A stretch of DNA of 64,000 nucleotides from Escherichia phage vB_EcoS_ESCO30, in the sequence record NC_106513.1. The stretch is one strand, 5' to 3'. A program made the translations under genes and the position numbers. The notes beneath the pieces are model-generated. The model did not search any database. It was not told the origin of the DNA and was given only the letters and a program-made list of their open reading frames with translations. Of the stretch, positions 10,186-36,427 are shown one piece after another (position 1 is the stretch's first letter; every line of letters begins with the position of its first letter).

Positions 10186-10699
10186 ATCTCTCCGAGGGAT
10201 TAAATTCACCAAACAGCTCTTTAACTCCCCTAAGGTATAGCTGATGGGCTTCTTCCGGGGTATCTCGTCTACCAAAAATATGCTGCTTTCCATCGCAGTA
10301 AGCGTAGGCCATATACCTATTACCTCGTTTTACAACTCCAGTGAATCCGGTAGAATTAGTAGAACACTTCTTATTCTTTCCATTTTCGGAATAGGTAGCC
10401 TTACGTAAATTATCCCACAAGTTATTTAAACTATCACCGTCTTTATGGTCGATAGTTTTATCTCCAGGATCTTCGCCTGTCTTTATAAACCAGATTATTC
10501 TATGGGCTAAGTAAGCTGTCCGCTCCCCATTTATCGTAAACTCTAGTTGTCTCCCAGTTTTCATTTTGGAGCCCGCTACCTTTCCCTTCCTTGGGCCAGA
10601 TAACCAAATTAAGTCCCCAGTACTTTCGTCATACCTAAGCTTTTCTAGGATAAATGCCATAGGAGGCATTGGTTTATGCGTCTTCATTAGTTGCTCCAA
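10169..10699 (-). CDS. HNH homing endonuclease
   Basis: AYLAHRIIWF...IDHKDGD...NNL...NL HNH-like motif; diverged paralog of other HNH ORFs. Confidence 0.65.
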   Translation of the reverse strand: MEQLMKTHKPMPPMAFILEKLRYDESTGDLIWLSGPRKGKVAGSKMKTGRQLEFTINGERTAYLAHRIIWFIKTGEDPGDKTIDHKDGDSLNNLWDNLRKATYSENGKNKKCSTNSTGFTGVVKRGNRYMAYAYCDGKQHIFGRRDTPEEAHQLYLRGVKELFGEFNPSERYDSEE

Positions 10700-13538
10700 G
10701 TTCTGACAGTACTTCTTCTGCCATAGCCTTCTCTTCCTCTGTCATGAATTTGAAAGGAATCGGCATACACTCGATTTTACAATAGGTTCTGTACCAGTCT
10801 ACTATATTTTCAGTGTTCATATCCTTACCAATACCCATCATACCAAGATACATTCTAGCATATTTTGGGTTAGCACTCTGACCTGTTTTAAGGAAGAAGT
10901 CTTTCTTCTTACCTTTCAGAGCTTCTATGAAGGGTTTAATGGTTACATTTGAACACTTCTTAATGTCTTCCCAGAACATCTCGTGCATCTTATGGAAGAA
11001 TGCAGCTCGATCGTTCGGCTTATCTTTGATATATTGTTCAACATGCTCAACTGTTACATCTTTAATAGACTCAAGATGATAATAGCGAACAAGAAGTAGT
11101 TTAGCTTCATACGCATCCGCATGACGTGGAGCACAATAATCTGGAGTTGAATGCAGAATAGCTTTGATTCGCTCTTCTGTGTACTCTTTACCAGCACCTT
11201 CGATAGTTCCCCAGCTTTCACTGAAAATATCAATAGTTGCACCTTGATCAAGTAAGTAATAACGTAAAGTACTAGTATAGTTCCTAGATTCCAGCTCCCT
11301 GCGACGTGCGTATAATTGCTGTGCTAATTCCAGCCAGCCTTCATCAATATTATATTGTTCAGAACCTGCGGAGAATCCACTCGTAGATTTATCAATAAAA
11401 TAATAGATGTTCTGGGCACCACGGTCGCGCCTGATTGCTTGGAAACGCATGTTCGGCGCTTGATTACTGGTTCTAGTAATAACAAATACGTTATCAAAAT
11501 AGTTGAAGTCAACGCCACTCGTTACGGATGGACTACATAATAAACAGTCAATCTGTTGGTCAATTAGCTCATTAGTTGTATAATCCAGAATACGTCGAAT
11601 ATCCACATCTGAGGTGGAGTTTGAATGGATTTCCTTAACTAACGCACCAGTATTACGACGTAGTGCCATACCCTTCTCATTCAGCTCATCAGGGCCACAA
11701 TCAGATACCAGAATAGATTTCTCACCCATCTCTAGAGAAGTCTGAAGTGCAACCCAAATACTGGATTCATCAGGGAACTCATAAGCATGAGCTTTTGACA
11801 GCATCTTACGGTGATGATTATAGAATGCAACTGGTTTATCGAACTCAATCAAAGAACCATATGCTTCAATTGTTTCCGCACTAATATCACCATCGGATAG
11901 TATAATGATTTTTGCAGTTGCAAGAATATCCCGAAGAACCTGAATACACTCGCGACGTTGCTTAACAACCGGGGCGAATAATAGGTCATTCATTACTGCA
12001 TCACATTCATCAATAAAGATTGCATCAATTTGACCAATAAAACTTTTGAACTTATGTAAAGAGTGAATAGTTGTGGACATACGATCAATAGCACCACGCT
12101 TGAAATTAAGCATATCTACAGACTTATCATATTGTCCTGCACTAAATTTCTTGGCATTTGAAGATACCAGTGCTCTAGTATTTGTAATTGCTAAGAAATT
12201 ACCTTTAATAACCCCTGAATCTAACCAACGCACAACCGCCGTGGTTTTACCTGTGCCTAGACTTGCTTTTACAAAAGTCATATGACCTTCTGGTGGCACA
12301 GTGTTTAATTTCAAGAAATTATCTGTTTCTAGAGAGTTAGTTTCTAGCTTTTTAAGTGGAATACCTTTTAAAACATCAGGTATATCACGTTTAGAATTAT
12401 TAACAAATGCTTTCAGAGCCTGTTTTCGACCGTTATTAAAGTAATCTTGAATATTACGACTATTATCTTTAGTTGCAATATACTCAGATAAAGCTGGGCG
12501 GATCTCCTTCTCTAGCCAACCAAAATCTACACCATCCTCTAACGCTCGGTGATAGAGTTTAGGAATAATACGTAGATACACTCCATCTTCAGCTTCTTCT
12601 AGTTCGCTGATAGTTTCCTCTACTTTATCAGAGGCAGCTTTTTTACCTTTAATTTGATCGAGTAAAGAGTAGAATTCCTCTTTAAACTCTCCTCTAGTTG
12701 TTTCATAGTCAACTAGATTATTAGGTAAATTTACTTTTGAGCCTTTAACAAATACCAGACGTGAAGCACCATCCGCTTTAAACGGATCAACTATACCATC
12801 AGTAAATAAAGGATCTGCAAAATAGTGGAGCTGTACTGAAGAGTAATAAGCTAAGTCGGCAATATCAAAACCATACTTTTGTCTACTACTTTCGTTGATA
12901 GATGTAAATAAGAACTTGATCTGACCCTGTGTAACTTTAACATTAGATTCTAGTATTAAGTGCATTCGGATACCTGGTTTTAGTCCAGCCGAAGACGATG
13001 CATGAGCAATAAACCCTGCATCAAGAGGAAACATATCCTCACTAATACTATTCAACATCCTAATAATATGACGCGCCATGCCAACAAGATCAAACTTGTT
13101 ACAACCTCCTGTATCTACAATACCATCCACATCCATTGCGATTATATGACTTGGATTAGATACATTAAAGTTGCCCTTCTTACGTCGCACATTATTTTTA
13201 GGTGCAAGACATCGACCTCGTACCACAACGATATGAGGGTCAGACGTTAAACGTCTCATAAGAGGAAGCATTTCTACTAGGGTTTGAGGATCAACTTCAT
13301 CAATTACATCAAACTTGAAGGGCATTGAAGCTGGTTTACCTTCAGGATGCTTTGAGGAAAATCTTTTAGCAAAAAGATAATCTTCTGCTTTAACTTCTCG
13401 CCAATTGCCTGTGGCTAAATCGCGATGAAATCCTGCATGACCTTGTAGGATTGAAAACACAACAATACTCCTGTGTTGGAAATGAAATAAATTTTCTTTA
13501 GGACTATTCAGAAAGAATAGAACAACTGTTACTGTCAA
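10674..13538 (-). CDS. putative primase-helicase / replication initiation NTPase (start uncertain)
   Basis: Walker A SLGTGKTT and Walker B IFIDECD; N-terminal DxD-containing region; track ORF starts at TTG 13538, alternative ATG at 13325. Confidence 0.6.
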   Translation of the reverse strand: MTVTVVLFFLNSPKENLFHFQHRSIVVFSILQGHAGFHRDLATGNWREVKAEDYLFAKRFSSKHPEGKPASMPFKFDVIDEVDPQTLVEMLPLMRRLTSDPHIVVVRGRCLAPKNNVRRKKGNFNVSNPSHIIAMDVDGIVDTGGCNKFDLVGMARHIIRMLNSISEDMFPLDAGFIAHASSSAGLKPGIRMHLILESNVKVTQGQIKFLFTSINESSRQKYGFDIADLAYYSSVQLHYFADPLFTDGIVDPFKADGASRLVFVKGSKVNLPNNLVDYETTRGEFKEEFYSLLDQIKGKKAASDKVEETISELEEAEDGVYLRIIPKLYHRALEDGVDFGWLEKEIRPALSEYIATKDNSRNIQDYFNNGRKQALKAFVNNSKRDIPDVLKGIPLKKLETNSLETDNFLKLNTVPPEGHMTFVKASLGTGKTTAVVRWLDSGVIKGNFLAITNTRALVSSNAKKFSAGQYDKSVDMLNFKRGAIDRMSTTIHSLHKFKSFIGQIDAIFIDECDAVMNDLLFAPVVKQRRECIQVLRDILATAKIIILSDGDISAETIEAYGSLIEFDKPVAFYNHHRKMLSKAHAYEFPDESSIWVALQTSLEMGEKSILVSDCGPDELNEKGMALRRNTGALVKEIHSNSTSDVDIRRILDYTTNELIDQQIDCLLCSPSVTSGVDFNYFDNVFVITRTSNQAPNMRFQAIRRDRGAQNIYYFIDKSTSGFSAGSEQYNIDEGWLELAQQLYARRRELESRNYTSTLRYYLLDQGATIDIFSESWGTIEGAGKEYTEERIKAILHSTPDYCAPRHADAYEAKLLLVRYYHLESIKDVTVEHVEQYIKDKPNDRAAFFHKMHEMFWEDIKKCSNVTIKPFIEALKGKKKDFFLKTGQSANPKYARMYLGMMGIGKDMNTENIVDWYRTYCKIECMPIPFKFMTEEEKAMAEEVLSELGATNEDA

Positions 13539-13959
13539 TTTCTCAACAAATTAATCGCAAATACTGAAGTGGGGTGGCAACTTCCACTTTCACGCTACAC
13601 TGCCGCTTCACTATACCGCACAAATCCTTGAGGATGGCCGCTAAGCCAGATTTGCTCACCTAATGCTTCATGTACTAGCTCATACTAGATGTAGTATACC
13701 TTACGTCATCACTTCTCAGAGTTTTTCACTCTTCCCGTCTCACTTCACAACCACCTCACACTAGGTTGCTTCGAGGCCTTACCAGGGTTCCTACGGGATG
13801 TAGATCGCTAAGTATTCTATTAATTATTTGTTTAAAAACTAACACGTAACAGTTAAAACAACCCTTAATGGGGCAGCCTAACTGTTCCGTATCGCGGATT
13901 GTAAACAAGAAAAATTAGCAAAATCAATTTTTACTAATGTCTCTCAATTCAATATAAAT

Positions 13960-13988
13960 ATTATATCAAGATTTTGAGCATCGTGCAA
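13960..13988 (-). promoter_or_regulatory. sigma70-type promoter (minus strand)
   Basis: minus-strand -35 TTGCAC (13983-13988), 17 bp spacer, -10 TATAAT (13960-13965). Confidence 0.55.
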
Positions 13989-14030
13989 GTAAATTTTTAA
14001 AGAGAATGCTATCATTGGTCTTGAGTACGG

Positions 14031-14058
14031 ATAAAACCGAGCCAAAATGACTCGGTTA
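14031..14058 (-). terminator. rho-independent terminator (minus strand)
   Basis: AACCGAG...CTCGGTT stem followed on minus strand by TTTTAT. Confidence 0.5.
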
Positions 14059-14064: not shown

Positions 14065-14262
14065 TTAGACACTTAAAATACTTCTAATCTCTTCTATATA
14101 CTTATCTACTTTTTTAGCATCTACTTTGCTTAGTTTTTCTATATCAAAATTAGGATCAGTAAACATTCTAGCTATCTCTATCTCTAGAGACTTACTAATT
14201 TTCCCTGTAGTATTCCACTTAGAAATCTTCCCTTTTATTTTCCAAAATTCCTTATTCATCAT
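14065..14262 (-). CDS. hypothetical protein
   Basis: 65-aa ORF, last gene of minus-strand operon. Confidence 0.4.
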   Translation of the reverse strand: MMNKEFWKIKGKISKWNTTGKISKSLEIEIARMFTDPNFDIEKLSKVDAKKVDKYIEEIRSILSV

Positions 14263-14644
14263 TTAATCCCGGAACATAAATCCCAACACGATTTAATTGT
14301 TCTTTAGCTTCTGCGAGAATATCTGGAGTGTACTCCCAAATATCATTTTCCACCTGTAAAAGATGGGGCGAACAACCGTCATCAGGCACACGACATATGG
14401 CCAAACCACGTGGATGGAACAAAGAGAAATTTAGTGCAACAATTAAACCCATAGCAGACAACTCATTCCAATCCAATTCCCATTCCCTAGCGTAGCCTGA
14501 TAGGAAAACACCAATACAGGGATAGTCTATTTGCTGCTTCGGAAAAGTGAAGGAAGCTTGTCTTACCCCCAACCAACGTTGTAGCAGCTTCTCCGCACGC
14601 TTCACCAAACTAGGATCAATCTGACGCCAATATACTTGTTCCAT
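14252..14644 (-). CDS. hypothetical protein, paralog A
   Basis: Shares PCIG...W.ELD.MGL..ALN..LF.P...GxxxPGL pattern with adjacent ORF 14654-15082. Confidence 0.5.
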   Translation of the reverse strand: MEQVYWRQIDPSLVKRAEKLLQRWLGVRQASFTFPKQQIDYPCIGVFLSGYAREWELDWNELSAMGLIVALNFSLFHPRGLAICRVPDDGCSPHLLQVENDIWEYTPDILAEAKEQLNRVGIYVPGLNDE

Positions 14645-14653
14645 TGTGCCCCC

Positions 14654-15082
14654 TTAGGCAGTTAAACCAGGAATCTGATAACCAAAACGACGAAGTTTCT
14701 GGATACCATCATTTACCTCTTCCGGCGAGTAAGACCAACCGTAGTGTTCATTAACTTGAAAGCCCGGAGATTCACTGGTTTTATAATTAACAACAATACG
14801 GTGTTTATTGGGCATAAATAGCTTATAGTTTAATGCAAAAACCAATCCCATTTCATCCAGCTCTTTCCATCCGACAATCTCTTCAAGACCATCCTCTACC
14901 TGCACAATTAAACCAATACAGGGAGCCTCTTCAATCTCACCTTTAAAAGCAAAGGAGATTTCATTATTCTCACACCATATTTTCAGAGCATTAATAGCCT
15001 CGTTGTACAGGTTGGCTGGAAGAGTACGCCAAAAATTAACCAATATTGGGTTAGCTTCTTTAGAAAATACATTATTGAACAT
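14654..15082 (-). CDS. hypothetical protein, paralog B
   Basis: Same conserved pattern as 14252-14644; tandem paralogs. Confidence 0.5.
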   Translation of the reverse strand: MFNNVFSKEANPILVNFWRTLPANLYNEAINALKIWCENNEISFAFKGEIEEAPCIGLIVQVEDGLEEIVGWKELDEMGLVFALNYKLFMPNKHRIVVNYKTSESPGFQVNEHYGWSYSPEEVNDGIQKLRRFGYQIPGLTA

Positions 15083-15084
15083 AT

Positions 15085-15591
15085 TTACACCTTAAATTGT
15101 TGTAGGGCTTTACACATTTCAAGATCTGGACTAAATTCTAACATATAGCTAACAGCTCTTAAATCTTGAAGATTTATTCCAGTCCTACCGTTGACTATAA
15201 CCGTTGGATACTGATACATCATAGCACCCGCATCATCAAGCACACACCAATGTTTGAGCTTATGCTTTTCAACGAAACGAAGAACAGAATTACCCCTAGA
15301 TAATCCACCCCCAGTAAAATCCGTTGTACCAAGAAAACGATCGATAAGACCTAATCCGGTCATAATCTGAACGTTCTCCATCTCATTTCTGACAGAGAAC
15401 CAAGATGATACTCCAACAATCATTATCGGAGAAGGACGAATAAAGTCCTGAAAAGCCTTGAGAAGCGGTTTAAAAACCCAGTCACTTCCAAAGAAAATCT
15501 TTTCATCATCAGGTGCATGGTGATGAGAGATGCTCGAGTTGAGTACCCCATCAATATCTAGAAAAATAATTGGAGTATTACTTATTTCCAT
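15085..15591 (-). CDS. HAD-superfamily phosphatase (possible 5'-nucleotidase)
   Basis: HAD motif I FLDIDGVL near N-terminus. Confidence 0.6.
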   Translation of the reverse strand: MEISNTPIIFLDIDGVLNSSISHHHAPDDEKIFFGSDWVFKPLLKAFQDFIRPSPIMIVGVSSWFSVRNEMENVQIMTGLGLIDRFLGTTDFTGGGLSRGNSVLRFVEKHKLKHWCVLDDAGAMMYQYPTVIVNGRTGINLQDLRAVSYMLEFSPDLEMCKALQQFKV

Positions 15592-15760
15592 TTTTGTCCC
15601 TTTCTAAGAACGTATCATACTCAACCGTATCAACATATATGACACCATAGTCATCAGATTTATAGTCCATTTCCCATAGCTCACATCGATAACACCAACT
15701 ACCATCCGCCCATACAAATATATCATCGGGATGTGTATATACAGATTTAACTATGGACAT
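15578..15760 (-). CDS. hypothetical protein
   Basis: 60-aa ORF overlapping neighbours by a few codons. Confidence 0.35.
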   Translation of the reverse strand: MSIVKSVYTHPDDIFVWADGSWCYRCELWEMDYKSDDYGVIYVDTVEYDTFLERDKNGNK

Positions 15761-16583
15761 ATCTGTTTCCCCTCATCTCCGGTACATAAGGTCTACCCTC
15801 TAGATGGGCTTCTACACGAGCAATAAAATCAGGGTCACTGAAAGCATCTACCGCACCTTTACTCCAGTAAGGGATACCGCGTTCTTCCAACTGGTACATC
15901 TCACTACGAGTCATACCTTGATAGCCTGGTTCCGCCGCTAGGGCACTATCGTAGTAGTTAACTACCATAAGTTTCGCAGCAGTACGATTAAGAGTAGGAA
16001 ATAGTTCCCAGTAGAAGTTAATTACTTGGTTAGAGCAACCAACTACAACGATCATATCTTGACTGGTAATACCATCAAAAATATTGTACATTTCTGCGTA
16101 CGCTGGAGCATGCTCACCAAAGAAGATTACATTAGGTTTAACCCATTTATAATCATCTGGGTCAATAGAGTTATACCCAACATCAATAACTCGTTTATTA
16201 CTACTATTGTAGCTGTCAGCTACAACAACCTCTTTTAAATATCCGTGAATGTGCAGAATGTCACTATGTGGAACACCAGCACGCTCAATAAGATCATCAA
16301 CGTTAGTAGTCAAATTTACTACTTGACCCGGATATTTCTTATACCATTCACCAATACGCAGGTGTGCAAGATTGGGTTCAACAGTTTCTAACTCTTCACG
16401 ACGTTTGTTGTAAAACGTGTGGGTTTTATGATAAAAATTACCACGAAAGGCATGAATATTACATATCTCTTCTAAGTCATAATCATCCCACAATGCTTTA
16501 CCACTAGCAGTATCAGTACGGAAGGCTCGTACACCACTTTCAACACTCAAACCTGCACCGCTAATAATAATTAATCTACGCAT
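15747..16583 (-). CDS. SIR2-family (sirtuin-like) NAD-binding protein
   Basis: GAGLSVESGVRAFR, TTNVDDL, LHIHG, NVIFFGE and VVVGCS motifs in sirtuin order; no zinc-ribbon Cys pairs. Confidence 0.7.
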   Translation of the reverse strand: MRRLIIISGAGLSVESGVRAFRTDTASGKALWDDYDLEEICNIHAFRGNFYHKTHTFYNKRREELETVEPNLAHLRIGEWYKKYPGQVVNLTTNVDDLIERAGVPHSDILHIHGYLKEVVVADSYNSSNKRVIDVGYNSIDPDDYKWVKPNVIFFGEHAPAYAEMYNIFDGITSQDMIVVVGCSNQVINFYWELFPTLNRTAAKLMVVNYYDSALAAEPGYQGMTRSEMYQLEERGIPYWSKGAVDAFSDPDFIARVEAHLEGRPYVPEMRGNRYVHS

Positions 16584-16797
16584 TTTTCACCTGTTCTCTG
16601 AAGTTTTTACTAAGGTTATGGAGTATATCAGATACTTCTGGATGGGCTTTCCCAACTACAGAATTAGCCATAATATCCATTATTTTTGCACAAGATTCAA
16701 CCCCATCCTTATACCCAGCCTCCCACTGCTGCATCAATGCATTTTCCAGCGCAGCATTTAAGCCGTTATCGGGTAGCATCGGCTTCGAGAATGCCAT
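16576..16797 (-). CDS. hypothetical protein
   Basis: 73-aa ORF in operon. Confidence 0.4.
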   Translation of the reverse strand: MAFSKPMLPDNGLNAALENALMQQWEAGYKDGVESCAKIMDIMANSVVGKAHPEVSDILHNLSKNFREQVKNA

Positions 16798-16969
16798 AAA
16801 GTTTCTCCTCTAGTTCCATAATACGACTTTCATAAGAAGCACGCAACTTTTCAATTGCTAGCGCACGCACCATAACCTCATTAGAGTTAATAGCTAATTG
16901 AGCTAGCTCTTCAGTTTCCATACGTCCGTTATAGATTAAGCGATATTTAAGGTGTTTTACGTTTTTCAT
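16766..16969 (-). CDS. hypothetical protein
   Basis: 67-aa ORF in operon. Confidence 0.4.
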   Translation of the reverse strand: MKNVKHLKYRLIYNGRMETEELAQLAINSNEVMVRALAIEKLRASYESRIMELEEKLYGILEADATR

Positions 16970-17178
16970 TCTATGTCCTCAAACAATTCAATTTCTGCAT
17001 TTGCAATTAAAAGAGCTGGTTCCGATAAGCATATGCCTGATCTAGGGTCAATCTTCTCCTTATCCATCCAAGTATTTATTAAGCAAAATTTAGTAACATC
17101 TTCTCTTAGAATAGATCCATATGCTCCTGAGTCCATAACAAAATAGATACGATCTTTATCTACCTTATGAATCCTCAT
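16966..17178 (-). CDS. hypothetical protein
   Basis: 70-aa ORF, first gene after promoter. Confidence 0.4.
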   Translation of the reverse strand: MRIHKVDKDRIYFVMDSGAYGSILREDVTKFCLINTWMDKEKIDPRSGICLSEPALLIANAEIELFEDIE

Positions 17179-17206
17179 ATCTTTCTCCTCTCAAATTTAT
17201 AAATCT

Positions 17207-17235
17207 ATTATACATATATTTTTAGCTGAAAGCAA
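17207..17235 (-). promoter_or_regulatory. sigma70-type promoter (minus strand) for SIR2/HAD operon
   Basis: minus-strand -35 TTGCTT (17230-17235), 17 bp spacer, -10 TATAAT (17207-17212). Confidence 0.65.
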
Positions 17236-17277
17236 ATAAAATAAAAGCCAGGTCGACTAGCAACCTGGCTGATTATC

Positions 17278-19104
17278 TTACTTAAGATTTAAGTGTTTTA
17301 CTCTACCAAGCACTTCTTTTTGTTTCCCAGAATTGAAAGGCCTACTGCCCGGGGATCCCAGGTACCCGCAAACCCTACGTGTAACCTCTATTTCTTCAGA
17401 CCCACAACTTGGACATACAAACCCACGCTCAGAGGCAATAGATTCACCCATATATCCGCAGTTGAAACACTCGTCAATCGGTATATTAACACCGATATAA
17501 TGGCTACACTCTAGTCCCTTATCTACTACGTATTCAAGAGCTTTATGGAATTTTTTCATTTGTGGTAATTCCACAAACGATATATTACCCCCATTAGCTA
17601 TTTTGGTAAAATGAGCTTCGTACTCAAATTTAGTATCTGGGGCTACCTTCTCTCTTACGTCCAAATGGTGACTATTAGTAAGATAGCCTTTGTCTGTTAA
17701 CCAAGAATACTCTGGGAATCTACGTTCTAGTAATTTATTAAAACGATTACATAGAGACTCACTAGGAGTAGCGTATAAGCTAAATCCAAGATTAGTCTCA
17801 TTAGCTTTAACTTCGCAACGATTTTTTAAGTGAGTGAGAACTTCCTCTGTAAATTCAATACAGTCCCTATGAGTCTGTGGTAAACTAAACATTATTTGGC
17901 ACATCTCATAGACTCCAATATACCCAAGAGATACAGAAGATCTACCCTCAAAAATAGGCCATACATATTCTTCCCCCTCTAAACGTACACCAAAACCACC
18001 GTGCATATAAAGAATAGGGGCTTGTTTAGCCTTCACTTTCTTAAGTCTATCCAAGAAAAAATCATGAGCTTCAAAAGCCTCATCCACATATTTGTCCAGA
18101 ATATCCCAGAAATCTTCAAAAACCCCATCTGCCTCAGCAGCAACCATAGGTAGATTAATAGACACTACACCTAAATTATTGCGCCCTGCAATTTCTCCGG
18201 AGGGGATAGCAGATAAAAAGCTACGACAACCCATAGGGGCTTTAAAATCACCAGTAACAGCTACAACTTTCTCATAGCTTAAATAGTCTGGGTACATACG
18301 GGTAGCAGAACACTCAAGTGCTAGCTGTTTTATATCGTAGTTAGGATCGCCTGGATTTTTATTTAACCCTTCTTTAACTGAGAATACTAGTTTAGGGAAG
18401 ATAGGGGTTGACTCAGCAGCACCTAAACCTTTAATACGATTTTGGAGGATGGCTTTCTGAATCATCCTTTCCTCCCACTCCTGACCTAATCCAAAGCCAA
18501 GCGTAACAAAAGGGGTCTGCCCATTAGAGTTAAATAATGAATTAGTTTCATACTCTAGAGCTTGGAATGCATCATAACACTCTTTTTCAGTAAGCTCAGT
18601 GGCATACACAGCAGCTTTTCTTTCATCCTTGAGCCAACGTAGCCCACGACCCAGATGTTTATTGTAAGACTTTCTGACATACGGGGCTAGAACCTCGTCG
18701 ATACGATCAATAGAGGTGCCACCATACTGAGCACCAGATACTTGGGCAATAATCTGAGCAGTGATTGCACATGCAGTAGTTATGGATTTAGGAGTTTCAA
18801 TATTTGCATTACCAATTTTAGTACCATTCTTCAGCATGCCACCAAGGTCTACTAAGCAACAGTTAGTGTACCCCTGCGCCCTGTAATCCATATCATGAAT
18901 GTGTATCTTACCTAGATTATGGGCGTCTAATAGATGTTTGGGTAATTCCTGCGATACTAAATACTTGTTGATTTCTCCGGCCAATAAGTCTCTTTGAGTA
19001 TGGAACATCTCACTAGGCTTATTAGCATTATTATGTTGTAAGTCTTTATCCGCAGTTAGAGTGAGCAGACCTTTGCAATTCTCAATTAATTCATTCTCTG
19101 TCAT
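17278..19104 (-). CDS. nrdD: anaerobic ribonucleoside-triphosphate reductase (class III)
   Basis: C-terminal glycyl-radical motif RRVCGYLG and CxxC...CPSC zinc ribbon; 608 aa. Confidence 0.85.
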   Translation of the reverse strand: MTENELIENCKGLLTLTADKDLQHNNANKPSEMFHTQRDLLAGEINKYLVSQELPKHLLDAHNLGKIHIHDMDYRAQGYTNCCLVDLGGMLKNGTKIGNANIETPKSITTACAITAQIIAQVSGAQYGGTSIDRIDEVLAPYVRKSYNKHLGRGLRWLKDERKAAVYATELTEKECYDAFQALEYETNSLFNSNGQTPFVTLGFGLGQEWEERMIQKAILQNRIKGLGAAESTPIFPKLVFSVKEGLNKNPGDPNYDIKQLALECSATRMYPDYLSYEKVVAVTGDFKAPMGCRSFLSAIPSGEIAGRNNLGVVSINLPMVAAEADGVFEDFWDILDKYVDEAFEAHDFFLDRLKKVKAKQAPILYMHGGFGVRLEGEEYVWPIFEGRSSVSLGYIGVYEMCQIMFSLPQTHRDCIEFTEEVLTHLKNRCEVKANETNLGFSLYATPSESLCNRFNKLLERRFPEYSWLTDKGYLTNSHHLDVREKVAPDTKFEYEAHFTKIANGGNISFVELPQMKKFHKALEYVVDKGLECSHYIGVNIPIDECFNCGYMGESIASERGFVCPSCGSEEIEVTRRVCGYLGSPGSRPFNSGKQKEVLGRVKHLNLK

Positions 19105-19954
19105 TGATTATTTCCTCGATAAACTTTATAGCTACTTTTGGTTCAATATTGAAGAATTCCGTAGCGCCGTCAAAATCTTTGTACTGGCAATTCTGCTCTT
19201 TAAAGTAGTTATGGGCTAATTTTTCTATTCGAACTGCACTACTATATTCTCCAATTTCAAATACTTTAATTATTTCCAAATCAGTAAGGTGGCTACTAGA
19301 TCTAATTTGTAGAAGCCTACGCTCTGGGTTGTTAGATCTACCTATTTTAACCCCATGTGAGGGGCTATGCATAATATATATCCTAGTACTTTCTAAATCT
19401 CTATAATTACAGTAAGGACAACCGTTCCCTCTTAATACAGATCCTGGAGTAGCTTCCCACCTATGCCCTGCACCACAAAGAAAGGCGGTCTTAGTATTCG
19501 CGTTACTATACTCACCCACTATTCTGATATTTCTGGCAGCAAGACGATCATTTATAGTATTAACACTAAGTTTTTGTTTATTAGTAGCACAAGATGGGCA
19601 GCCACTACCTCTATTAATTATACTATTAAGTGTAGTAGCCCACTCATGACCACAAACACACCTAAATTTAGTATTTATATCGGCACTATTTTTATAGCCG
19701 TTCAACAATGTAATACCTCTGTCCTGTAATACAGTATTAATTCTATCAATATCTAGTTTACGGCTACTAATAGAGCAAGTAGGACAATTGGTCTTTCCAT
19801 TCCTAATAGCGTCAAATTTAGCTGTCCATTGGTGACCGTATTCACACTGATACGTATGCCTATACCTAGAATTTTGATATGGCTTATCCACCATAGTAAA
19901 ACCACGCTCGGCTAGGCATTTATCTACTTCTTCTTGAGTTAATTTTTTCGGCAT
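19091..19954 (-). CDS. T5orf172/GIY-YIG-like putative endonuclease with three zinc-ribbon repeats
   Basis: Three C..GH.W...G.GCPxC repeats, then IYIMHSP..GVKIGRS..P..RL motif; ATG at 19952-19954 with GGAGAAG SD; track start is GTG at 19996. Confidence 0.6.
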   Translation of the reverse strand: MPKKLTQEEVDKCLAERGFTMVDKPYQNSRYRHTYQCEYGHQWTAKFDAIRNGKTNCPTCSISSRKLDIDRINTVLQDRGITLLNGYKNSADINTKFRCVCGHEWATTLNSIINRGSGCPSCATNKQKLSVNTINDRLAARNIRIVGEYSNANTKTAFLCGAGHRWEATPGSVLRGNGCPYCNYRDLESTRIYIMHSPSHGVKIGRSNNPERRLLQIRSSSHLTDLEIIKVFEIGEYSSAVRIEKLAHNYFKEQNCQYKDFDGATEFFNIEPKVAIKFIEEIINDRE

Positions 19955-20007
19955 TCCACTTCTCCACAGAATTTTTACGGCATTCCACTTCTCCACAGAA
20001 TTTTTAC
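19950..20007. repeat. perfect 2 x 29 bp tandem direct repeat (GGCATTCCACTTCTCCACAGAATTTTTAC)
   Basis: Identical copies at 19950-19978 and 19979-20007; each carries SD + ATG of the downstream minus-strand gene. Confidence 0.9.
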
Positions 20008-28983: not shown

Positions 28984-29685
28984 ATGAAAGTAAAACCATT
29001 TGGTATGTTAGATATTGAATCTCTAGGAACCCCAGGAGATTGTGGTACTACTCATATCGTAATGCCTTCTTTCGCTTTTGTGGCTATGCATGGAATTGAT
29101 AAAGATCCTGATCTAGTGTTTGTTACTTTGGATGTACAAGATCAGCTTAATTCTGGAGCCAAAGTTACGGCATCTACTCTAGCATTCTGGATGGATCAAG
29201 CTAAAAATAGCCCATCAGCTCTCCATATTATGGAAGCTATGAAGGAATGCAATCCAAAGCTGATTGCTTTTCAAGATGGTAAACATCACTGTACTAATAA
29301 GCTTGGCTCTAACTATGCAGCTTATTCTATGGCTAAAAACATTATGGAGTTGGCTCTAGGCGAAAATACTTTGTATTATGGCAATGGCCCAGAATTTGAT
29401 ATGACTATCTATTCTGCAAATACGTTCCATGCTGGAACCAATGAAGAGGTAATTCCGTGGAAATTCTGGAATTTGGGTAATGTTCGATCTCTTCGTAATC
29501 TCTGGATGCAAGCTGGATATAGTTACAAAGACCTAGAAGCTGAGGGGATTAGCTGGGCAAAAGCTAAGATGGAGAAGATGGACACCATTCGTTATGGGAT
29601 CTATCCGGTTAAGCATGATCCTGCATTTGATGCCTTAGTTGAAAGCTATTGTGTTGCAGCTATGATCGAAAAAATGAAAATTTGA
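28984..29685 (+). CDS. putative DEDDh-type 3'-5' exonuclease
   Basis: DIESLG (Exo I D-x-E) near N-terminus and H-x4-D (HDPAFD) near C-terminus. Confidence 0.45.
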   Translation: MKVKPFGMLDIESLGTPGDCGTTHIVMPSFAFVAMHGIDKDPDLVFVTLDVQDQLNSGAKVTASTLAFWMDQAKNSPSALHIMEAMKECNPKLIAFQDGKHHCTNKLGSNYAAYSMAKNIMELALGENTLYYGNGPEFDMTIYSANTFHAGTNEEVIPWKFWNLGNVRSLRNLWMQAGYSYKDLEAEGISWAKAKMEKMDTIRYGIYPVKHDPAFDALVESYCVAAMIEKMKI

Positions 29686-32564: not shown

Positions 32565-33361
32565 ATATTCATAAATTAGAGAACAGCGAGCCGATTACGC
32601 TGAGTGCAGAATCCCAACCGGAGCGCATTGAATAGAGTCGGTGGGTTAGTTGGAAAACTAGTACACAGGGGGCGGCAATCCCGGTTAGTGGCTAGAACGT
32701 GTAAAATGAGGCGTCTGAAACCTCTCCCCTAAACTCTTCTCTAATTTACTGATAGTGGGGTGTGGAAATCACTTATGTAGTAACACTGCCGATCTAGTAT
32801 AAACGGTATTATCAAGCCGTAACTGGTGGAAGATGTAGGTTCGAATCCTACGGTCGGTAAGAACTGGATAACTGGTGCTTTTAACGTAAAAGCTTCCGAG
32901 GTTAGTTGCGCACTGCCTAAACCACGCGGTAGTTGGTTCCAGACTAACCAACCAGTCTGCTGAATAGTTTTATTACGATTTAACTATGTCCAGGCATAAA
33001 GAAGAACTTTAGAAGGTATTCTAGGTAGTGAAGTTTTTCCTCCATATCGGAGTAGTTTTTCAAGCTATCCACAAAGTGGGAAATGATGGCATGAGAGATG
33101 CCACTAATGGTGCACAATAGCACAGGTAATTCGCGATAACCCCTGTTGAGTAGCAGCAAAAAGGTGGGGAGTCATGACCCTAACCTAACCGAGTCCTCAG
33201 TATACCGCAGGACATAACCACTAAGTCACCTTGACTTAAACTGGAAAATAATAGACGTTACTGTATTTTGTCTTGAAATACTTAATGAGTGAGACTTATG
33301 ACTCTCCCGGTATCGTCTGTATTTTTAAGAGTTTTTACGAGAGTTCTTAAAAATACTTAAA

Positions 33362-33436
33362 CGGGGTGTAGTCTAAGGGAGAGGCAGGAGTCTTCTAAAT
33401 TCCTTTATGCAGGTTCGAATCCTGTCACCTCGGCCA
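33362..33436 (+). tRNA. tRNA-Arg (anticodon TCT)
   Basis: Hand-folded: acceptor CGGGGTG/CACCTCG, D-stem GTCT/AGGC, anticodon loop CTTCTAA, T-arm GCAGG-TTCGAAT-CCTGT, CCA encoded. Confidence 0.65.
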
Positions 33437-33470
33437 ATTTTATTAACTGTAACTAAGACAAAGGAAATAT

Positions 33471-34418
33471 ATGTTTAATACTAAAAATATGAAAGAACTG
33501 ACTTCTGAGCAAAAAGTAATTCGCACTATTAAACGTTGGGGTATTGGTGCTGTAGTTGGTTTAGCAGGTTTAATCCTAGCTTTTAATTCATATACTATTG
33601 TTTCTGATGGTACGGTTAAAACCCAAACATTTCTGGGTAAAGTAGATCCTAACCCAGTATTACCTGGTTTCCATCTTGTAAACCCATTTGCATCTTTCGA
33701 TACTTTTAGTACAAAAGATATTGCTGTAAAATTAGATAAACTTCAGGTTCCTAGCCAGGATAAGTTTAAATCCACTGTTGACCTGACTGTTATGTTACAA
33801 TTTGATGGTTCTAAGGCACCGATCAACCGTATTAACGCAGGTACTCAGGATCAGGCGTTAGATAAGTATGTAACTGAGAAATTGCTATCTACTATTCGTG
33901 AATTTGGTAAGTCTGTTCCTAAAGCACAAGATTTGTTTGACGCTAAAATTCAGGCACAATTGCAAACCGCAATTCAACAGGAAGTTGAAGAGTATGCACG
34001 CCCCTATGGTTACACAGTTAAGCAAGTATTCCTTCAGGATATTACATTGCCACCGGTAATTATGGAACAGGTACAGAATACCAAAGTTCGTGAAGAACAA
34101 GTTAATGCTGCGAAAGCTGAATTGGCTCGTGTTGAACAAGAAGCACAGCAGAAGGTTAAACAAGCAGAAGCAGATCGTGAAGCTCGTAACAACCAAGCTA
34201 TTGCAAACGAACGTGATGCAGATGCTAAACTGTACGCAGCTAAGAAAGAAGCTGAAGCTAACGCTGCTCTGCAACGTACTATTACTCCTGAGATGATTCG
34301 TTGGAAACAACTAGAAGTTGAAATGATTCGTGCTCAGAAATATCAAGGTGGTGTACCGCAAACAGTAGTTGGCACTGGTTACGATGGCCAGATGATTATG
34401 GATATGCGTAACAAGTAA
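33471..34418 (+). CDS. SPFH/band-7 domain membrane protein
   Basis: N-terminal TM helix, SPFH-like core and long Ala/Gln/Glu coiled-coil tail. Confidence 0.65.
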   Translation: MFNTKNMKELTSEQKVIRTIKRWGIGAVVGLAGLILAFNSYTIVSDGTVKTQTFLGKVDPNPVLPGFHLVNPFASFDTFSTKDIAVKLDKLQVPSQDKFKSTVDLTVMLQFDGSKAPINRINAGTQDQALDKYVTEKLLSTIREFGKSVPKAQDLFDAKIQAQLQTAIQQEVEEYARPYGYTVKQVFLQDITLPPVIMEQVQNTKVREEQVNAAKAELARVEQEAQQKVKQAEADREARNNQAIANERDADAKLYAAKKEAEANAALQRTITPEMIRWKQLEVEMIRAQKYQGGVPQTVVGTGYDGQMIMDMRNK

Positions 34419-34442
34419 TACCCACATGTAATATTCGAAGTA

Positions 34443-34477
34443 AGCCCTGCGTTCCCTGGAGAGCGCAGGGCTTTTCT
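34443..34477 (+). terminator. rho-independent terminator
   Basis: AGCCCTGCG...CGCAGGGCT 9-bp stem followed by TTTTCT. Confidence 0.75.
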
Positions 34478-34488
34478 GTATTTAAGGT

Positions 34489-34532
34489 AAAAGAAAAGCC
34501 CCTAAGTCTTTCGACTAGGGGCTTTATTGTTT
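34489..34532. terminator. bidirectional rho-independent terminator between convergent units
   Basis: GCCCCTA...TAGGGGC stem flanked by AAAAGAAAA upstream and TTTATTGTTT downstream. Confidence 0.6.
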
Positions 34533-34742
34533 GGTTCTTTAGAACCATATACTCTTATTACAGCAACCACCCATACGGGAGGCCAATCTTGACTGAAAAT
34601 CTACTCTAGGGGGCAGGATAAGAGTAGGCTTAAAGGCAAAGGGATTGAACGCCGGTATTTGTGTAAACATTGCTGGAGAGCAACAACGTGCTACAGGCAT
34701 TGGGCAGCACGAAACAGATTTTCTGCAACACATAATTCCTCC

Positions 34743-35159
34743 TTAGGAGTTATTATCACCATTTTGAGCTTTTGCAACTTGGCTTTGGCAGAAGCTATTA
34801 AACTTACCCATAAGTGATACAAGCTGTTTCCCATCCTCTGTCTTTGCGAAGTCTTCGAAAAGGGCTAGTACTGCCTGTCCTTCCGCAGAAACCTGCGGTT
34901 GTTGGGTTTGTTGCTGAACTTGCTGCTGAGCCACCTGTTGCTGCATTTGTTGAGGCATTTGCGACTGCCCGCTCATTTGCTGCATCATTTGCATAGGACT
35001 CACACTTCCAGGGTTTTGCTGGAGTTGTTGCTGCATCTGTTGCGCTTCTGCTAAACGCTGTTGCAACTGTTGTAGGTAAGGGTTATCCAGTCCCGGAACG
35101 GGCTGCTGGGAGCCCATTTGTTGATTAAATCCGTTGTTTACAAAACCATATTTACTCAT
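34743..35159 (-). CDS. glutamine-rich low-complexity protein
   Basis: 138-aa ORF, about 30% Gln with QQMQQQ repeats; convergent to neighbours. Confidence 0.5.
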   Translation of the reverse strand: MSKYGFVNNGFNQQMGSQQPVPGLDNPYLQQLQQRLAEAQQMQQQLQQNPGSVSPMQMMQQMSGQSQMPQQMQQQVAQQQVQQQTQQPQVSAEGQAVLALFEDFAKTEDGKQLVSLMGKFNSFCQSQVAKAQNGDNNS

Positions 35160-35180
35160 AATGGGCTCCTCCCCTTAATT

Positions 35181-36161: not shown

Positions 36162-36223
36162 TTTTTGACACCTCCTAGTATATAGAAAATGTGTGTCTCT
36201 TTGATCACTCATCCATAACATAT

Positions 36224-36252
36224 ACTTTACACTACCCCGGCGAAAATGTCAA
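36224..36252 (-). promoter_or_regulatory. candidate promoter (minus strand) for low-complexity gene pair
   Basis: minus-strand -35 TTGACA (36247-36252), 17 bp, -10 TAAAGT (36224-36229), weaker -10. Confidence 0.35.
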
Positions 36253-36368
36253 GGGGTCTTTAAAAATTGCCCCCGGATTTTTAGTGGGGTCACAAATTTT
36301 GGTCCTCACCACTTATCTGCTACCCTTAAGTGCCCTATGATTTTCCCCTAAAAAGTTAAAAAATTTGA

Positions 36369-36397
36369 TTGCTTGAATGCTAAATTCTCTGTATAAT
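36369..36397 (+). promoter_or_regulatory. strong early promoter
   Basis: -35 TTGCTT 36369-36374, 17 bp, -10 TATAAT 36392-36397. Confidence 0.7.
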
Positions 36398-36427
36398 ATA
36401 TCTATAAATTTGAGAGAGGAACCAAAT

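What the first reader, a model, noticed from the sequence alone, without database searches (positions are those of the whole stretch)
14065..17240. Operon combining a SIR2-like protein, a HAD phosphatase and a tandem paralog pair
One minus-strand unit (promoter at 17207-17235, terminator at 14031-14058) encodes three small proteins, a sirtuin-like protein with intact GAGxSxxSG / HG / FGE / VVVG motifs but no zinc ribbon, a HAD phosphatase (FLDIDGVL), and two tandem paralogs sharing PCIG...ELD.MGL...PGL. A phage SIR2 next to a phosphatase could act on NAD+ or ADP-ribose derived molecules, which bears on NAD-depleting host defences or host takeover by ADP-ribosylation.
Basis: partly seen in the sequence, partly recalled or inferred. 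Interest (0 to 1): 0.65.

Follow-up and report, generated by a model that had tools for sequence, protein, structure and literature searches.

The report
T5-type early operon: sirtuin plus phosphatase
This is the known, conserved early operon of T5-like phages (T5 genes 100-107) that carries a zinc-less CobB-like sirtuin next to an RNA-repair-type HAD phosphatase; the pairing is already in the literature as a predicted NAD-dependent RNA-repair module, is still untested, and the two paralogs probably belong to a different function.

Summary
Window 17235-14031 (minus strand) is one tightly packed unit of nine ORFs. It lies between a promoter that follows the nrdD terminator and a hairpin terminator. 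The window is a T5-like phage, and the unit is the homologue of T5 genes T5.100-T5.107.

- **Sirtuin.** It is closest to E. coli CobB. It keeps every NAD-binding and catalytic residue and the class-III Tyr/Arg pair. It has no zinc-ribbon cysteines.
- **HAD.** It is a full-length member of Pfam HAD_SAK_2 with all four catalytic motifs.
- **Prior description.** Iyer et al. 2022 described exactly this sirtuin plus "Swiss-army-knife" HAD neighbourhood in T5-like phage SP15. They predicted Tpt1/KptA-like removal of RNA 2'-phosphate. I found no experimental test.
- **My survey.** The same sirtuin clade sits beside T4-type RNA ligase 1, a kinase and a metallophosphatase in about 145-kb phages. A HAD orthologue is translationally coupled to the NAD-rebuilding genes Adps-Namat in Serratia phage Kashira.
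- **Paralogs.** The pair (DUF7415) is separable from the sirtuin-HAD pair. Elsewhere it abuts the P2 replication initiator gene A, nrdD/nrdG or nudE.

Verdict: real, already described and functionally untested. Interest is moderate to low.

The parts
17246..17270 (-). Terminator hairpin of the upstream nrdD gene; marks the 5' boundary of the unit
   Evidence: 10-bp stem with 6 G-C pairs followed by a T run. A terminator is annotated at the same place in T5, BF23 and EASG3.
17207..17235 (-). Early promoter: TTGCTT, 17-nt spacer, TATAAT, with an A/T-rich upstream stretch
   Evidence: Read. Promoters are annotated at the homologous site in T5 and BF23. The -35 hexamer matches only 3 of 6, so the consensus scan did not list it.
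16966..17178 (-). Small ORF, 70 aa, function unknown. This first slot of the operon is variable.
   Evidence: phrog_20147, E=6e-45. Many relatives carry a different gene of about 118-147 aa here, related to the 118-aa gene of phage KEY.
16766..16969 (-). Small ORF, 67 aa, function unknown
   Evidence: phrog_5236, E=3e-45. Present in most T5-like loci.
16576..16797 (-). Small ORF, 73 aa, function unknown; its end overlaps the sirtuin start by 8 nt
   Evidence: phrog_5827, E=2e-21. Coordinates.
15747..16583 (-). Sirtuin, 278 aa: CobB/class III-like and without a zinc ribbon. Homologue of T5.102.
   Evidence: Family and closest structure:
- Pfam PF02146, E=1.7e-24.
- Best solved relative by sequence is E. 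coli CobB 1S5P, E=1.5e-17.
- AF2 model has pLDDT 90. Its best fold match is CobB, TM 0.85 normalised to the target.

Residues invariant across 46 phage homologues (121 sequences): G9-A10-G11-x-S13, F21-R22, Y58/R61, N94/D96, H113-G114, F155/E157 (the FFGE motif; G156 between them is not among the invariant columns), G182-x-S184 and N209.
15578..15760 (-). Small ORF, 60 aa, between the sirtuin and the HAD. It overlaps each by 14 nt. Function unknown.
   Evidence: phrog_5116, E=2e-29. Present in most T5-like loci and absent from some, such as L019 and L022-24.
15085..15591 (-). HAD-superfamily phosphatase, 168 aa, of the 'Swiss-army-knife RNA repair' type. Homologue of T5.105.
   Evidence: Pfam PF18143: 73 bits against a cut-off of 27.5, covering profile positions 1-138 of 139. 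Motif I D12-x-D14, motif II S62-S63, R99 and the D119-D120 motif are conserved; D12, D14, S62, S63, R99 and D120 are invariant across 25 Demerecviridae sequences and three distant phage orthologues, while D119 is replaced by E in Morganella phage MP1. No solved relative by sequence.
14654..15082 (-). DUF7415 paralog a, 142 aa; core motif degenerate (LFMPNKHR in place of LHPxGLA). Homologue of T5.106.
14252..14644 (-). DUF7415 paralog b, 130 aa; keeps the family motif (LFHPRGLAICR). Homologue of T5.107.
   Evidence: Pfam PF24187, E=7e-30. 31% identical to paralog a.
14065..14262 (-). Small ORF, 65 aa, in the variable last slot
   Evidence: phrog_29527, E=1e-39. Absent from BF23 and T5 and present in EASG3 and a minority of loci.
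14031..14057 (-). Terminator-like hairpin: 10-nt arms, 3-nt loop, then TTTTAT
   Evidence: Inverted repeat I9 and the sequence. A terminator is annotated at the homologous site in T5, BF23 and EASG3.

Best explanation
The unit is the early operon T5.100-T5.107 of a T5-like phage. It is a mosaic, not one machine.

**The functional core is the sirtuin plus the HAD phosphatase.**
- The sirtuin descends from a CobB-type (class III) enzyme. It keeps the NAD+ site, the catalytic His, and the Tyr/Arg pair that binds an anionic group in CobB and SIRT5.
- It has lost the zinc ribbon.

**Most likely mechanism (inferred, not shown).**
1. The sirtuin uses NAD+ as acceptor for a phosphate ester on damaged RNA. 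This would be a 2'-phosphate, or a terminal 2'/3'-phosphate left after a host anticodon or other metal-independent nuclease has cut tRNA or mRNA.
2. The chemistry would copy Tpt1/KptA. The phosphate oxygen attacks C1'' of NAD+ and nicotinamide leaves. The catalytic His then helps the 2''-OH displace the RNA. [quoted passage not shown]
3. The HAD enzyme removes the remaining phosphate monoester. That is either the 3'/2'-phosphate on the RNA end (as the HAD domain of T4 Pnkp does) or the phosphate on the ADP-ribose by-product (as yeast Poa1p and phage Adpp do).
4. Sealing would be left to a host ligase, because no RNA ligase or polynucleotide kinase is encoded in the 64-kb window.

**The other genes.** The two DUF7415 paralogs and the five small ORFs are co-transcribed early genes with their own, unknown roles. 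DUF7415 probably goes with replication initiation or nucleotide supply rather than with NAD.
For: **Shown here**
- Sirtuin identity, and invariance of its catalytic, NAD-binding and Tyr58/Arg61 residues across the phage clade.
- Full HAD_SAK_2 match with intact motifs.
- Sirtuin and HAD are adjacent in 29 of 32 Demerecviridae loci. They stay together with inverted order in Erwinia phage KEY.
- The same sirtuin clade (50-65% identity) lies in the string Metallophos - T4 RNA ligase 1 - cREC - AAA_33 kinase - sirtuin - ATP ligase in 12 loci of about 145-kb phages.
- A 36%-identical sirtuin in a 608-kb phage lies two genes from another RNA ligase 1.
- Distant HAD relatives sit by RNA ligase 1 + kinase + metallophosphatase in 2 of 59 loci.
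- No Macro domain is encoded next to the sirtuin.
- The phage carries 22 tRNA genes.

**Published**
- Iyer et al. 2022 (PMC9503650, section 3.7.3) name this neighbourhood type, with phage SP15 as its example, and predict KptA-like 2'-phosphate removal.
- Some Tpt1 enzymes also remove terminal 2'/3'-phosphates with NAD+ (PMC6573784).

**For the ADP-ribose-phosphate branch**
- A HAD orthologue (E=7e-40) overlaps by 4 nt the start of Adps-Namat in Serratia phage Kashira.
- A Macro phosphatase in that operon position is shown to convert ADPR-1''P to ADPR (bioRxiv 10.64898/2026.01.28.702374).
Against: - No experiment exists for any phage sirtuin of this clade in the library searched.
- T5-like phages lack the ligase and kinase that make the RNA-repair reading compelling in the 145-kb phages. 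None was found in the window or in BF23 20-69.5 kb.
- The acyl-lysine pocket residues (FFGE, and V95 at the CobB I131 position) are also kept, so a protein deacylase or ADP-ribosyltransferase is not excluded.
- The HAD is missing from three Demerecviridae loci that keep the sirtuin (L060, L062, L063). None of 59 distant HAD loci has a sirtuin. The coupling is therefore not obligatory.
- Gene neighbourhood in densely packed early regions is weak evidence.
Confidence: 0.4

Rival explanations
1. Metabolite-level counter-defence. The pair acts on soluble NAD-derived molecules, not on RNA. The HAD would be a non-Macro ADPR-1''-phosphate (or ADPR-2''/cyclic phosphate) phosphatase, analogous to Adpp. 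It would detoxify or recycle the products of RES-type or other non-canonical NAD+ cleavage. The sirtuin would bind or convert NAD-derived immune products or signals.
For: - A HAD orthologue is translationally coupled to Adps-Namat (NARP1) in phage Kashira.
- The preprint 10.64898/2026.01.28.702374 shows that a phosphatase added to NARP1 defeats aRES by turning ADPR-1P into ADPR.
- Distant HAD loci lie near Namat/NadV-like genes (2 of 59) and Nudix genes (4 of 59).
- A distant sirtuin lies next to NAMPT in L067.
- NARP1 genes lie 6 kb from the sirtuin cluster in Raoultella phage Ro1.
- T5-like phages invest in NAD supply through NARP3 (PMC13464706) and use an NAD-dependent DNA ligase.
Against: - The window has no Adps, Namat, NadV, PnuC or NadR to use the ADPR.
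- No role for a catalytically intact sirtuin follows from this model. Rebuilding NAD+ from ADPR-1P plus nicotinamide by reverse phosphorolysis is thermodynamically unfavourable (my estimate from standard hydrolysis energies).
- The HAD-NARP1 coupling was seen in one small lineage only: 3 records at 80% identity or more.
Confidence: 0.2
2. Host or phage protein modifier. The sirtuin is a CobB-like lysine deacylase (desuccinylase or deacetylase) or a protein ADP-ribosyltransferase that re-tunes host metabolism or phage proteins early in infection. The HAD is merely co-transcribed.
For: - Closest relatives by sequence and fold are genuine deacylases: CobB, SIRT5, Sir2Af, Sir2Tm.
- Y58/R61 equal CobB Y92/R95, which I recall as the succinyl-lysine determinants. 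I checked the numbering against the PDB titles.
- The FGE loop and the catalytic His are kept.
- This is the name given in most genome records.
Against: - All four zinc cysteines are lost across the whole clade, and the invariant motif reads TTNVD rather than TQNID.
- Scores fall far below every CobB equivalog cut-off, for example 91 bits against 320.
- The persistent linkage to phosphoesterases, RNA ligase and kinase in several phage lineages is unexplained by this model.
- No Macro or ARH partner is present to reverse ADP-ribosylation.
Confidence: 0.2
3. All nine genes form one system in which the DUF7415 pair is a subunit or regulator of the sirtuin-HAD enzymes.
For: - The genes are co-transcribed and tightly packed.
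- The order SIR2-HAD-DUFa-DUFb holds in 27 of 32 Demerecviridae loci.
- One Aeromonas phage locus has a HAD relative 1.8 kb from a DUF7415 gene (L171).
- One paralog has a degenerate core motif, which would fit a heterodimer.
Against: - Phage KEY has HAD and sirtuin but no DUF7415. L062 and L063 have the sirtuin and both DUF7415 genes but no HAD.
- Of 80 other DUF7415 loci, none has a sirtuin. 47 abut the P2 replication gene A, in either order.
- Other DUF7415 genes lie between nrdD and nrdG, or one gene after nudE.
- Known fusions are to ASCH/DUF3850 and to a thymidylate-kinase-like domain.
Confidence: 0.1
4. NADase weapon. The sirtuin simply destroys host NAD+ as part of host shut-off.
For: Zinc-less SIR2 domains in bacterial defence systems are NADases (general knowledge; reviewed in PMC9503650).
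Against: - The sirtuin has no similarity to defence SIR2 models. It matches the canonical PF02146 family.
- The phage needs NAD+ for its own split NAD-dependent DNA ligase.
- Relatives encode NAD-rebuilding pathways (PMC13464706).
Confidence: 0.03

Closest known systems
Phage T5 genes T5.100-T5.107 (AY543070), and the 'sirtuin + Swiss-army-knife HAD' neighbourhood type 3 of Iyer, Burroughs, Anantharaman and Aravind 2022 (PMC9503650), whose example is Escherichia phage SP15
   Same: - Same genes in the same order, between nrdD and the origin-binding-protein gene.
- 93-96% DNA identity to several T5-like phages.
- Same sirtuin clade and same HAD family.
   Different: Only the variable end slots differ. 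This phage has a 70-aa first ORF and an extra 65-aa last ORF. The paper does not discuss the DUF7415 pair.
E. coli CobB and human SIRT5 (class III sirtuins, NAD-dependent lysine deacylases)
   Same: - Rossmann core and GAGxS motif.
- Catalytic His (H113 equals CobB H147).
- Asn/Asp of the QNID motif, the FGE loop and the Y-x-x-R pair.
- Best sequence and fold match.
   Different: - No zinc-ribbon cysteines.
- TTNVD instead of TQNID.
- An extra C-terminal region of about 60 residues.
- Scores below all CobB family cut-offs.
- The gene context is phosphoesterases and RNA-repair genes, not acetyl-CoA synthetase regulation.
Tpt1/KptA NAD+-dependent RNA 2'-phosphotransferase with the downstream Cpd1 and Poa1p steps (yeast tRNA splicing)
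   Same: - Proposed chemistry: a phosphate oxygen attacks NAD+ C1'', nicotinamide is released, and ADP-ribose cyclic phosphate forms and is then dephosphorylated.
- Genomic company of RNA ligase, kinase and phosphoesterases in related phages.
   Different: The fold is unrelated (sirtuin Rossmann fold against ADP-ribosyltransferase fold). This is a functional analogy only, and the activity is untested.
T4 Pnkp + Rnl1 tRNA repair pathway
   Same: A HAD-type DxD phosphatase is the 3'-end healing activity in T4 Pnkp. The related 145-kb phages carry Rnl1, a kinase and a phosphatase around the same sirtuin.
   Different: The window has no kinase and no RNA ligase. The HAD belongs to a different HAD family (SAK_2) and stands alone.
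NARP1-AP (Adps + Namat + the Macro phosphatase Adpp), a phage counter-measure to aRES (bioRxiv 10.64898/2026.01.28.702374)
   Same: A phosphatase gene is built into an NAD/ADP-ribose operon. A HAD orthologue holds that position in phage Kashira.
   Different: The window lacks Adps and Namat. The phosphatase is a HAD, not a Macro domain. Activity on ADPR-1''P is not tested.
Defence sirtuins (ThsA, DSR1/2, SIR2-HerA, SIR2-APAZ)
   Same: They are NAD+-consuming SIR2 folds without a zinc ribbon.
   Different: They belong to a different family: the window sirtuin has no PADLOC match. It has no sensor domain, and it is encoded by a lytic phage in an early operon.

Membership tests
Sirtuin superfamily (Pfam PF02146 SIR2) | Profile match above the curated threshold | tested here: met
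   87.1 bits against a cut-off of 24, covering profile positions 1-178 of 180.
Sirtuin superfamily (Pfam PF02146 SIR2) | NAD-binding GAGxS and FR, Asn/Asp of the (Q)N(I)D motif, catalytic His | tested here: met
   G9-A10-G11-L-S13, F21-R22, N94/D96 and H113 align to the CobB residues. They are invariant in 46 homologues. The Gln is replaced by Thr (TTNVD).
Sirtuin superfamily (Pfam PF02146 SIR2) | Cys4 zinc ribbon in the small domain | tested here: not met
   No Cys in residues 117-148. The CobB cysteines align to non-Cys residues. The AF2 model keeps a small beta-sheet there.
Class III sirtuins / CobB equivalog | Y-x-x-R acyl-carboxylate-binding pair | tested here: met
   Y58 and R61 align to CobB Y92 and R95. 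I checked the numbering against the mutant names in the PDB titles. Both are invariant.
Class III sirtuins / CobB equivalog | NCBIfam equivalog score cut-off | tested here: not met
   Best scores are 102 against 243 and 91 against 320.
Class III sirtuins / CobB equivalog | Lysine deacylase activity | not testable with these tools
   Needs an enzyme assay.
Phage 'RNA-repair' sirtuin clade, neighbourhood type 3 (Iyer et al. 2022) | Sirtuin of the proteobacterial-phage clade next to a Swiss-army-knife HAD, with no adjacent Macro gene | tested here: met
   - SIR2 and HAD_SAK_2 are separated by one 60-aa ORF, and no Macro domain is present in the unit.
- Homologues include the Mydovirus and SP15 proteins.
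- The neighbourhood survey agrees.
Phage 'RNA-repair' sirtuin clade, neighbourhood type 3 (Iyer et al. 2022) | NAD+-dependent removal of RNA 2'-phosphate | not testable with these tools
   This is a prediction only. I found no experimental paper.
HAD superfamily, HAD_SAK_2 (PF18143) | Profile match above threshold plus catalytic motifs I-IV | tested here: met
   73 bits against a cut-off of 27.5. D12-x-D14, S62-S63, R99 and D119-D120 are conserved; all but D119 are invariant, and D119 is E in Morganella phage MP1.
T4-type RNA repair (Pnkp + Rnl1) | Polynucleotide kinase and RNA ligase encoded with the phosphatase | tested here: not met
   tblastn with the Ro1 Rnl1, kinase and ligase proteins found nothing in the window or in BF23 20-69.5 kb, apart from one chance-level hit at E=0.009. 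None is annotated in BF23.
NARP1 / NARP1-AP, NARP2, NARP3 | Adps + Namat, NadV + Nmnat, or PnuC + NadR genes | tested here: not met
   None is in the unit. None is in the region covered by the BF23 annotation or in the ORFs scanned.
Defence-type SIR2 NADases | Match to the defence SIR2 models | tested here: not met
   No PADLOC hit at E of 0.01 or better.
DUF7415 (PF24187) | Profile match above threshold | tested here: met
   114 and 103 bits against a cut-off of 27. The C-terminal half equals the family core (hhalign 99.7%).

The most novel reading that the evidence does not exclude
The phage sirtuin is the first sirtuin whose substrate is a phosphate ester rather than an acyl-lysine, making it a Tpt1 analogue. 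Its HAD partner is a non-Macro ADP-ribose-phosphate phosphatase, making it an Adpp/Poa1p analogue. Together they would let T5-like phages undo RNA damage, or RES-type NAD+ phosphorolysis, inflicted by host immunity. The tandem DUF7415 proteins would be a separate, previously unnoticed accessory of phage replication initiators.
Probability: 0.25. Interest if true: 0.7.

Novelty: already known. Interest (0 to 1): 0.33.

Why it matters
Sirtuins are known as protein deacylases, ADP-ribosyltransferases or NADases. If the published prediction holds, a sirtuin that transfers ADP-ribose to an RNA phosphate would be a new chemistry for the fold. It would also be a new phage answer to RNA-cleaving immunity. 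If instead the HAD handles ADP-ribose phosphates, it would add a second, non-Macro solution to the NAD+ arms race. Either case is directly testable in phage T5, a classical model, by deleting T5.102 and T5.105. The window itself adds no new kind of system. It is one more T5-like phage carrying a cluster that has been annotated since the T5 genome and was interpreted in 2022.

Tried and rejected
- **Internal repeat in DUF7415.** Pfam reported two stretches per protein. hhalign of the N-terminal half against the C-terminal half was negative (probability 17%), so I do not claim a duplication.
- **Solved relatives of the HAD.** A sequence search found none.
- **Non-coding gap 13539-14030.** It has no Rfam family, only weak repeats and no unusual RNA folding (z=-1.3).
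- **Internal signals.** Promoter- and terminator-like sites inside the unit are no more frequent than in shuffled sequence.
- **Literature.** I searched for experiments on a T5 or phage sirtuin, DUF7415, HAD_SAK_2 and T5 gene-essentiality screens. Nothing relevant turned up.
- **RNA ligase, kinase or NAD-salvage genes in the window.** None found.
- **Reverse phosphorolysis.** I considered and rejected a sirtuin that rebuilds NAD+ from ADPR-1''P plus nicotinamide. By my estimate the equilibrium lies about 200-fold the other way.
- **nrdD linkage.** I considered it, because nrdD is adjacent here and in L067. Phage KEY keeps HAD and sirtuin at the same site without nrdD.

Full report
**What the window is.** The stretch 14000-17300 matches 429 phage records. 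At least 80% of it is carried by 160 of them, with 93-96% identity to T5-like phages (KS_S14, BF23, DT571/2, EASG3). These are Demerecviridae, genus Tequintavirus. In phage T5 itself the same genes are T5.100-T5.107. T5.102 is annotated "putative Sir2-like protein". A promoter is annotated after the nrdD terminator, and a terminator after T5.107.

**Check of the observation.** Nine minus-strand ORFs fill 17178-14065. Neighbours overlap by 4-32 nt or are separated by 2-9 nt.
- Pfam assigns the 278-aa protein to SIR2 (E=1.7e-24).
- It assigns the 168-aa protein to HAD_SAK_2 (E=4e-20, full profile length).
- It assigns the 142- and 130-aa proteins to DUF7415.
- The five small ORFs (70, 67, 73, 60 and 65 aa) each match a PHROG family of unknown function.
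- The promoter is TTGCTT, a 17-nt spacer and TATAAT at 17235-17207.
- The nrdD terminator lies at 17270-17246.
- A 10-bp hairpin followed by TTTTAT lies at 14057-14031.
- Promoter- and terminator-like sites inside the unit do not exceed the shuffle expectation.

**The sirtuin.**
- By sequence the closest solved protein is E. coli CobB (1S5P, E=1.5e-17), followed by archaeal Sir2 and SIRT5.
- The AF2 model (pLDDT 90) superposes best on CobB (TM 0.85 normalised to the target).
- I checked residue numbering against the mutant names in the PDB titles. With that numbering, phage H113 equals CobB H147, V95 equals I131, and Y58/R61 equal Y92/R95.
- These residues, plus GAGxS, FR, N94/D96, F155/E157 of the FGE loop, GxS and N209, are invariant across 46 homologues down to about 54% identity (121 sequences).
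- The family motif reads TTNVDD rather than TQNID.
- There is no cysteine in the zinc-ribbon segment.
- All CobB-type NCBIfam models score far below their cut-offs. No defence-system SIR2 model matches.

It is therefore a divergent, zinc-less, phage-specific offshoot of class III sirtuins with an apparently working active site.

**The HAD.** Motif I (D12-x-D14), motif II (S62-S63), R99 and motif IV (D119-D120) are conserved in 25 distinct Demerecviridae sequences. All but D119, which is E in Morganella phage MP1, are also invariant in orthologues from Serratia, Morganella and Aeromonas phages. No solved relative is detectable by sequence.

**What is already published.** Iyer, Burroughs, Anantharaman and Aravind (Viruses 2022, PMC9503650, section 3.7.3) define a distinct clade of phage sirtuins with three neighbourhood types.
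- Type 2 (phages V5 and Mydo) has a T4-like tRNA ligase, cREC, a kinase, MazG and sometimes a calcineurin-like phosphoesterase.
- They propose that the sirtuin acts like KptA, removing 2'-phosphates from RNA cut by metal-independent nucleases. The phosphoesterases would either open the cyclic phosphate or process the ADP-ribose cyclic phosphate by-product.
- SP15 is a T5-like phage whose DUF7415 protein is 98% identical to the one here.

I found no paper that tests any of this.

**Independent neighbourhood survey.** I surveyed 62 IMG/VR loci and three NCBI loci that carry the sirtuin.
- All 32 Demerecviridae loci place the sirtuin between nrdD (or phoH) and the origin-binding-protein gene.
- The HAD is present in 29 of the 32. 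It is absent from L060, L062 and L063, which I confirmed with a HAD profile.
- In Erwinia phage KEY the order is HAD - 118 aa - sirtuin, so the pair survived a rearrangement.
- Twelve loci of about 145-kb phages (Raoultella Ro1 and relatives) have Metallophos - RNA ligase 1 - cREC - AAA_33 kinase - sirtuin - ATP ligase.
- A third group (ECO340P2-like) has only two unknown neighbours.
- More distant sirtuins (36-41% identity) lie two genes from another RNA ligase 1 (L068), next to NAMPT and nrdD (L067), or next to a nucleoside-deoxyribosyltransferase-like gene (L066).

This reproduces the published pattern. It also shows that the recurring company of this sirtuin is RNA-end-processing enzymes and, less often, NAD salvage.

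**A second lead for the HAD.**
- In Serratia phage Kashira (Vequintavirinae) a clear orthologue (E=7e-40 against the T5-type HAD profile) overlaps by 4 nt the start of Adps. Namat follows, so this is the NARP1 operon.
- A 2026 preprint (10.64898/2026.01.28.702374) shows that some NARP1 operons carry a Macro phosphatase, Adpp. It converts ADPR-1''-phosphate, the product of the RES-type defence aRES, into ADPR so that NARP1 can rebuild NAD+.
- The Kashira HAD sits in that position, so it may be a non-homologous equivalent.
- This coupling is confined to one small lineage.
- Among 59 distant HAD loci, only 2 have Namat/NadV-like neighbours, 2 have RNA ligase 1 + kinase + metallophosphatase, 4 have Nudix, and none has a sirtuin.

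The two readings converge chemically. A Tpt1-like reaction yields ADP-ribose cyclic phosphate and then ADPR-1''P, and in yeast Poa1p dephosphorylates ADPR-1''P.

**The paralog pair.**
- Sensitive profile search of 1.84 billion representatives finds only 54 relatives.
- The shared core is about 60 residues (WNELSxxGL..IN..ILHPxGLA..R.P.TG.S). It equals residues 68-130 of the 142-aa protein.
- Paralog b keeps the core motif. Paralog a has lost it.
- The fold has no match in the PDB.
- Outside Demerecviridae the domain is mostly a stand-alone small protein. In 47 of 80 IMG/VR loci it directly abuts the P2-type replication initiator gene A, either downstream or upstream with overlapping stop and start codons. 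The T5 record already notes T5.106 as "similar to ORF91".
- In Jiaodavirus it lies between nrdD and nrdG. In Slopekvirus and Pseudotevenvirus it lies one gene after nudE.
- Fusions exist with ASCH/DUF3850 and with a thymidylate-kinase-like domain.
- Within Demerecviridae, KEY has sirtuin and HAD without DUF7415. L062 and L063 have the sirtuin and both DUF7415 genes without the HAD.

The pair is therefore a separable module. Its company elsewhere is replication initiation and nucleotide supply, and in T5-like phages it is the last conserved gene pair before the origin-binding-protein gene. Its function remains unknown.

**Mechanism and likelihoods.**
- The best-supported model (0.4) is NAD+-dependent healing of phosphate-bearing RNA ends by the sirtuin. 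The HAD would remove the remaining phosphate from the RNA or from the ADP-ribose by-product. The main weakness for T5-like phages is that no ligase or kinase is encoded in the window, so a host ligase would be needed.
- Rivals are a metabolite-level anti-defence role (0.2), a CobB-like protein modifier (0.2), a single nine-gene system including DUF7415 (0.1) and a plain NADase (0.03).

**Verdict.** The feature is real, conserved and already described, both as annotated T5 genes and as a predicted RNA-repair neighbourhood. The function is untested. The points I add beyond the literature found are these:
- the mapping of the active-site and class III residues and the clade-wide loss of the zinc ribbon;
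- the HAD-NARP1 coupling in Kashira;
- the evidence that DUF7415 is an independent module associated with replication-initiator genes.

Noticed in passing
L072-L151 (IMG/VR), L152, L153; window 14252-15082: In 47 of 80 loci the DUF7415 gene directly abuts the P2-type rolling-circle replication initiator gene A. It lies either just downstream or just upstream with overlapping stop and start codons. The E. coli P2-like version is an ASCH/DUF3850-DUF7415 fusion of 150 aa. The literature search for DUF7415 returned no papers.
   Followed up: yes
L156:5001-8221 (Serratia phage Kashira, ON287374.1): An orthologue of the T5-type HAD phosphatase overlaps by 4 nt the start of the NARP1 genes Adps-Namat. 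A Macro phosphatase (Adpp) holds this position in NARP1-AP operons, so this may be a non-homologous ADPR-1''P phosphatase.
   Followed up: partly
window 15085-15591, and public records listed: Many GenBank and RefSeq records of T5-like phages list 'Sir2 (NAD-dependent deacetylase)' twice. The second gene is the HAD. PHROG phrog_18062, labelled Sir2, matches HAD residues 77-168 (E=3.5e-58), so the label is an annotation carry-over. DUF7415 proteins are likewise labelled 'exonuclease', 'tail tube protein' or 'tail assembly protein' in some records.
   Followed up: partly
window 13539-14030: A 490-nt non-coding gap lies between the operon terminator and the origin-binding-protein/helicase gene (10674-13538). 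It has no Rfam match, only weak repeats and no unusual RNA fold. It could hold the obp promoter and perhaps an origin. Its length varies among relatives.
   Followed up: partly
window 19091-19996 (minus strand): A 301-aa ORF with CapR, DUF4379 zinc-finger and T5orf172/MUG113 (GIY-YIG-like) domains overlaps the nrdD start by 14 nt. It looks like a homing-endonuclease-type insertion. BF23 has no gene at this position.
   Followed up: no
window 32787-45272: Cluster of 22 tRNA genes on the plus strand, interspersed with small ORFs and HNH/T5orf172 endonuclease genes.
   Followed up: no
window 16966-17178 and 14065-14262: The first and last slots of the operon are variable among T5-like phages. The first gene is either this 70-aa ORF or an unrelated gene of about 118-147 aa, homologous to the gene between HAD and sirtuin in Erwinia phage KEY. 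The 65-aa last ORF occurs only in a minority of loci.
   Followed up: partly
L067:4057-9125; L068:3582-6708; L066:6001-7198: Distant sirtuin relatives (36-41% identity) have other neighbours. L067, a 120-kb contig, has NAMPT - sirtuin - endonuclease VII - nrdD. L068, a 608-kb contig, has RNA ligase 1 - arginase-family protein - 109 aa - sirtuin. L066, a 279-kb contig, has sirtuin - nucleoside 2-deoxyribosyltransferase-like protein.
   Followed up: partly
window 28984-29685: A 233-aa ORF matches the Rv2179c-like 3'-5' exoribonuclease domain (E=6e-8). The corresponding BF23 gene appears to be annotated as a metallopeptidase.
   Followed up: no
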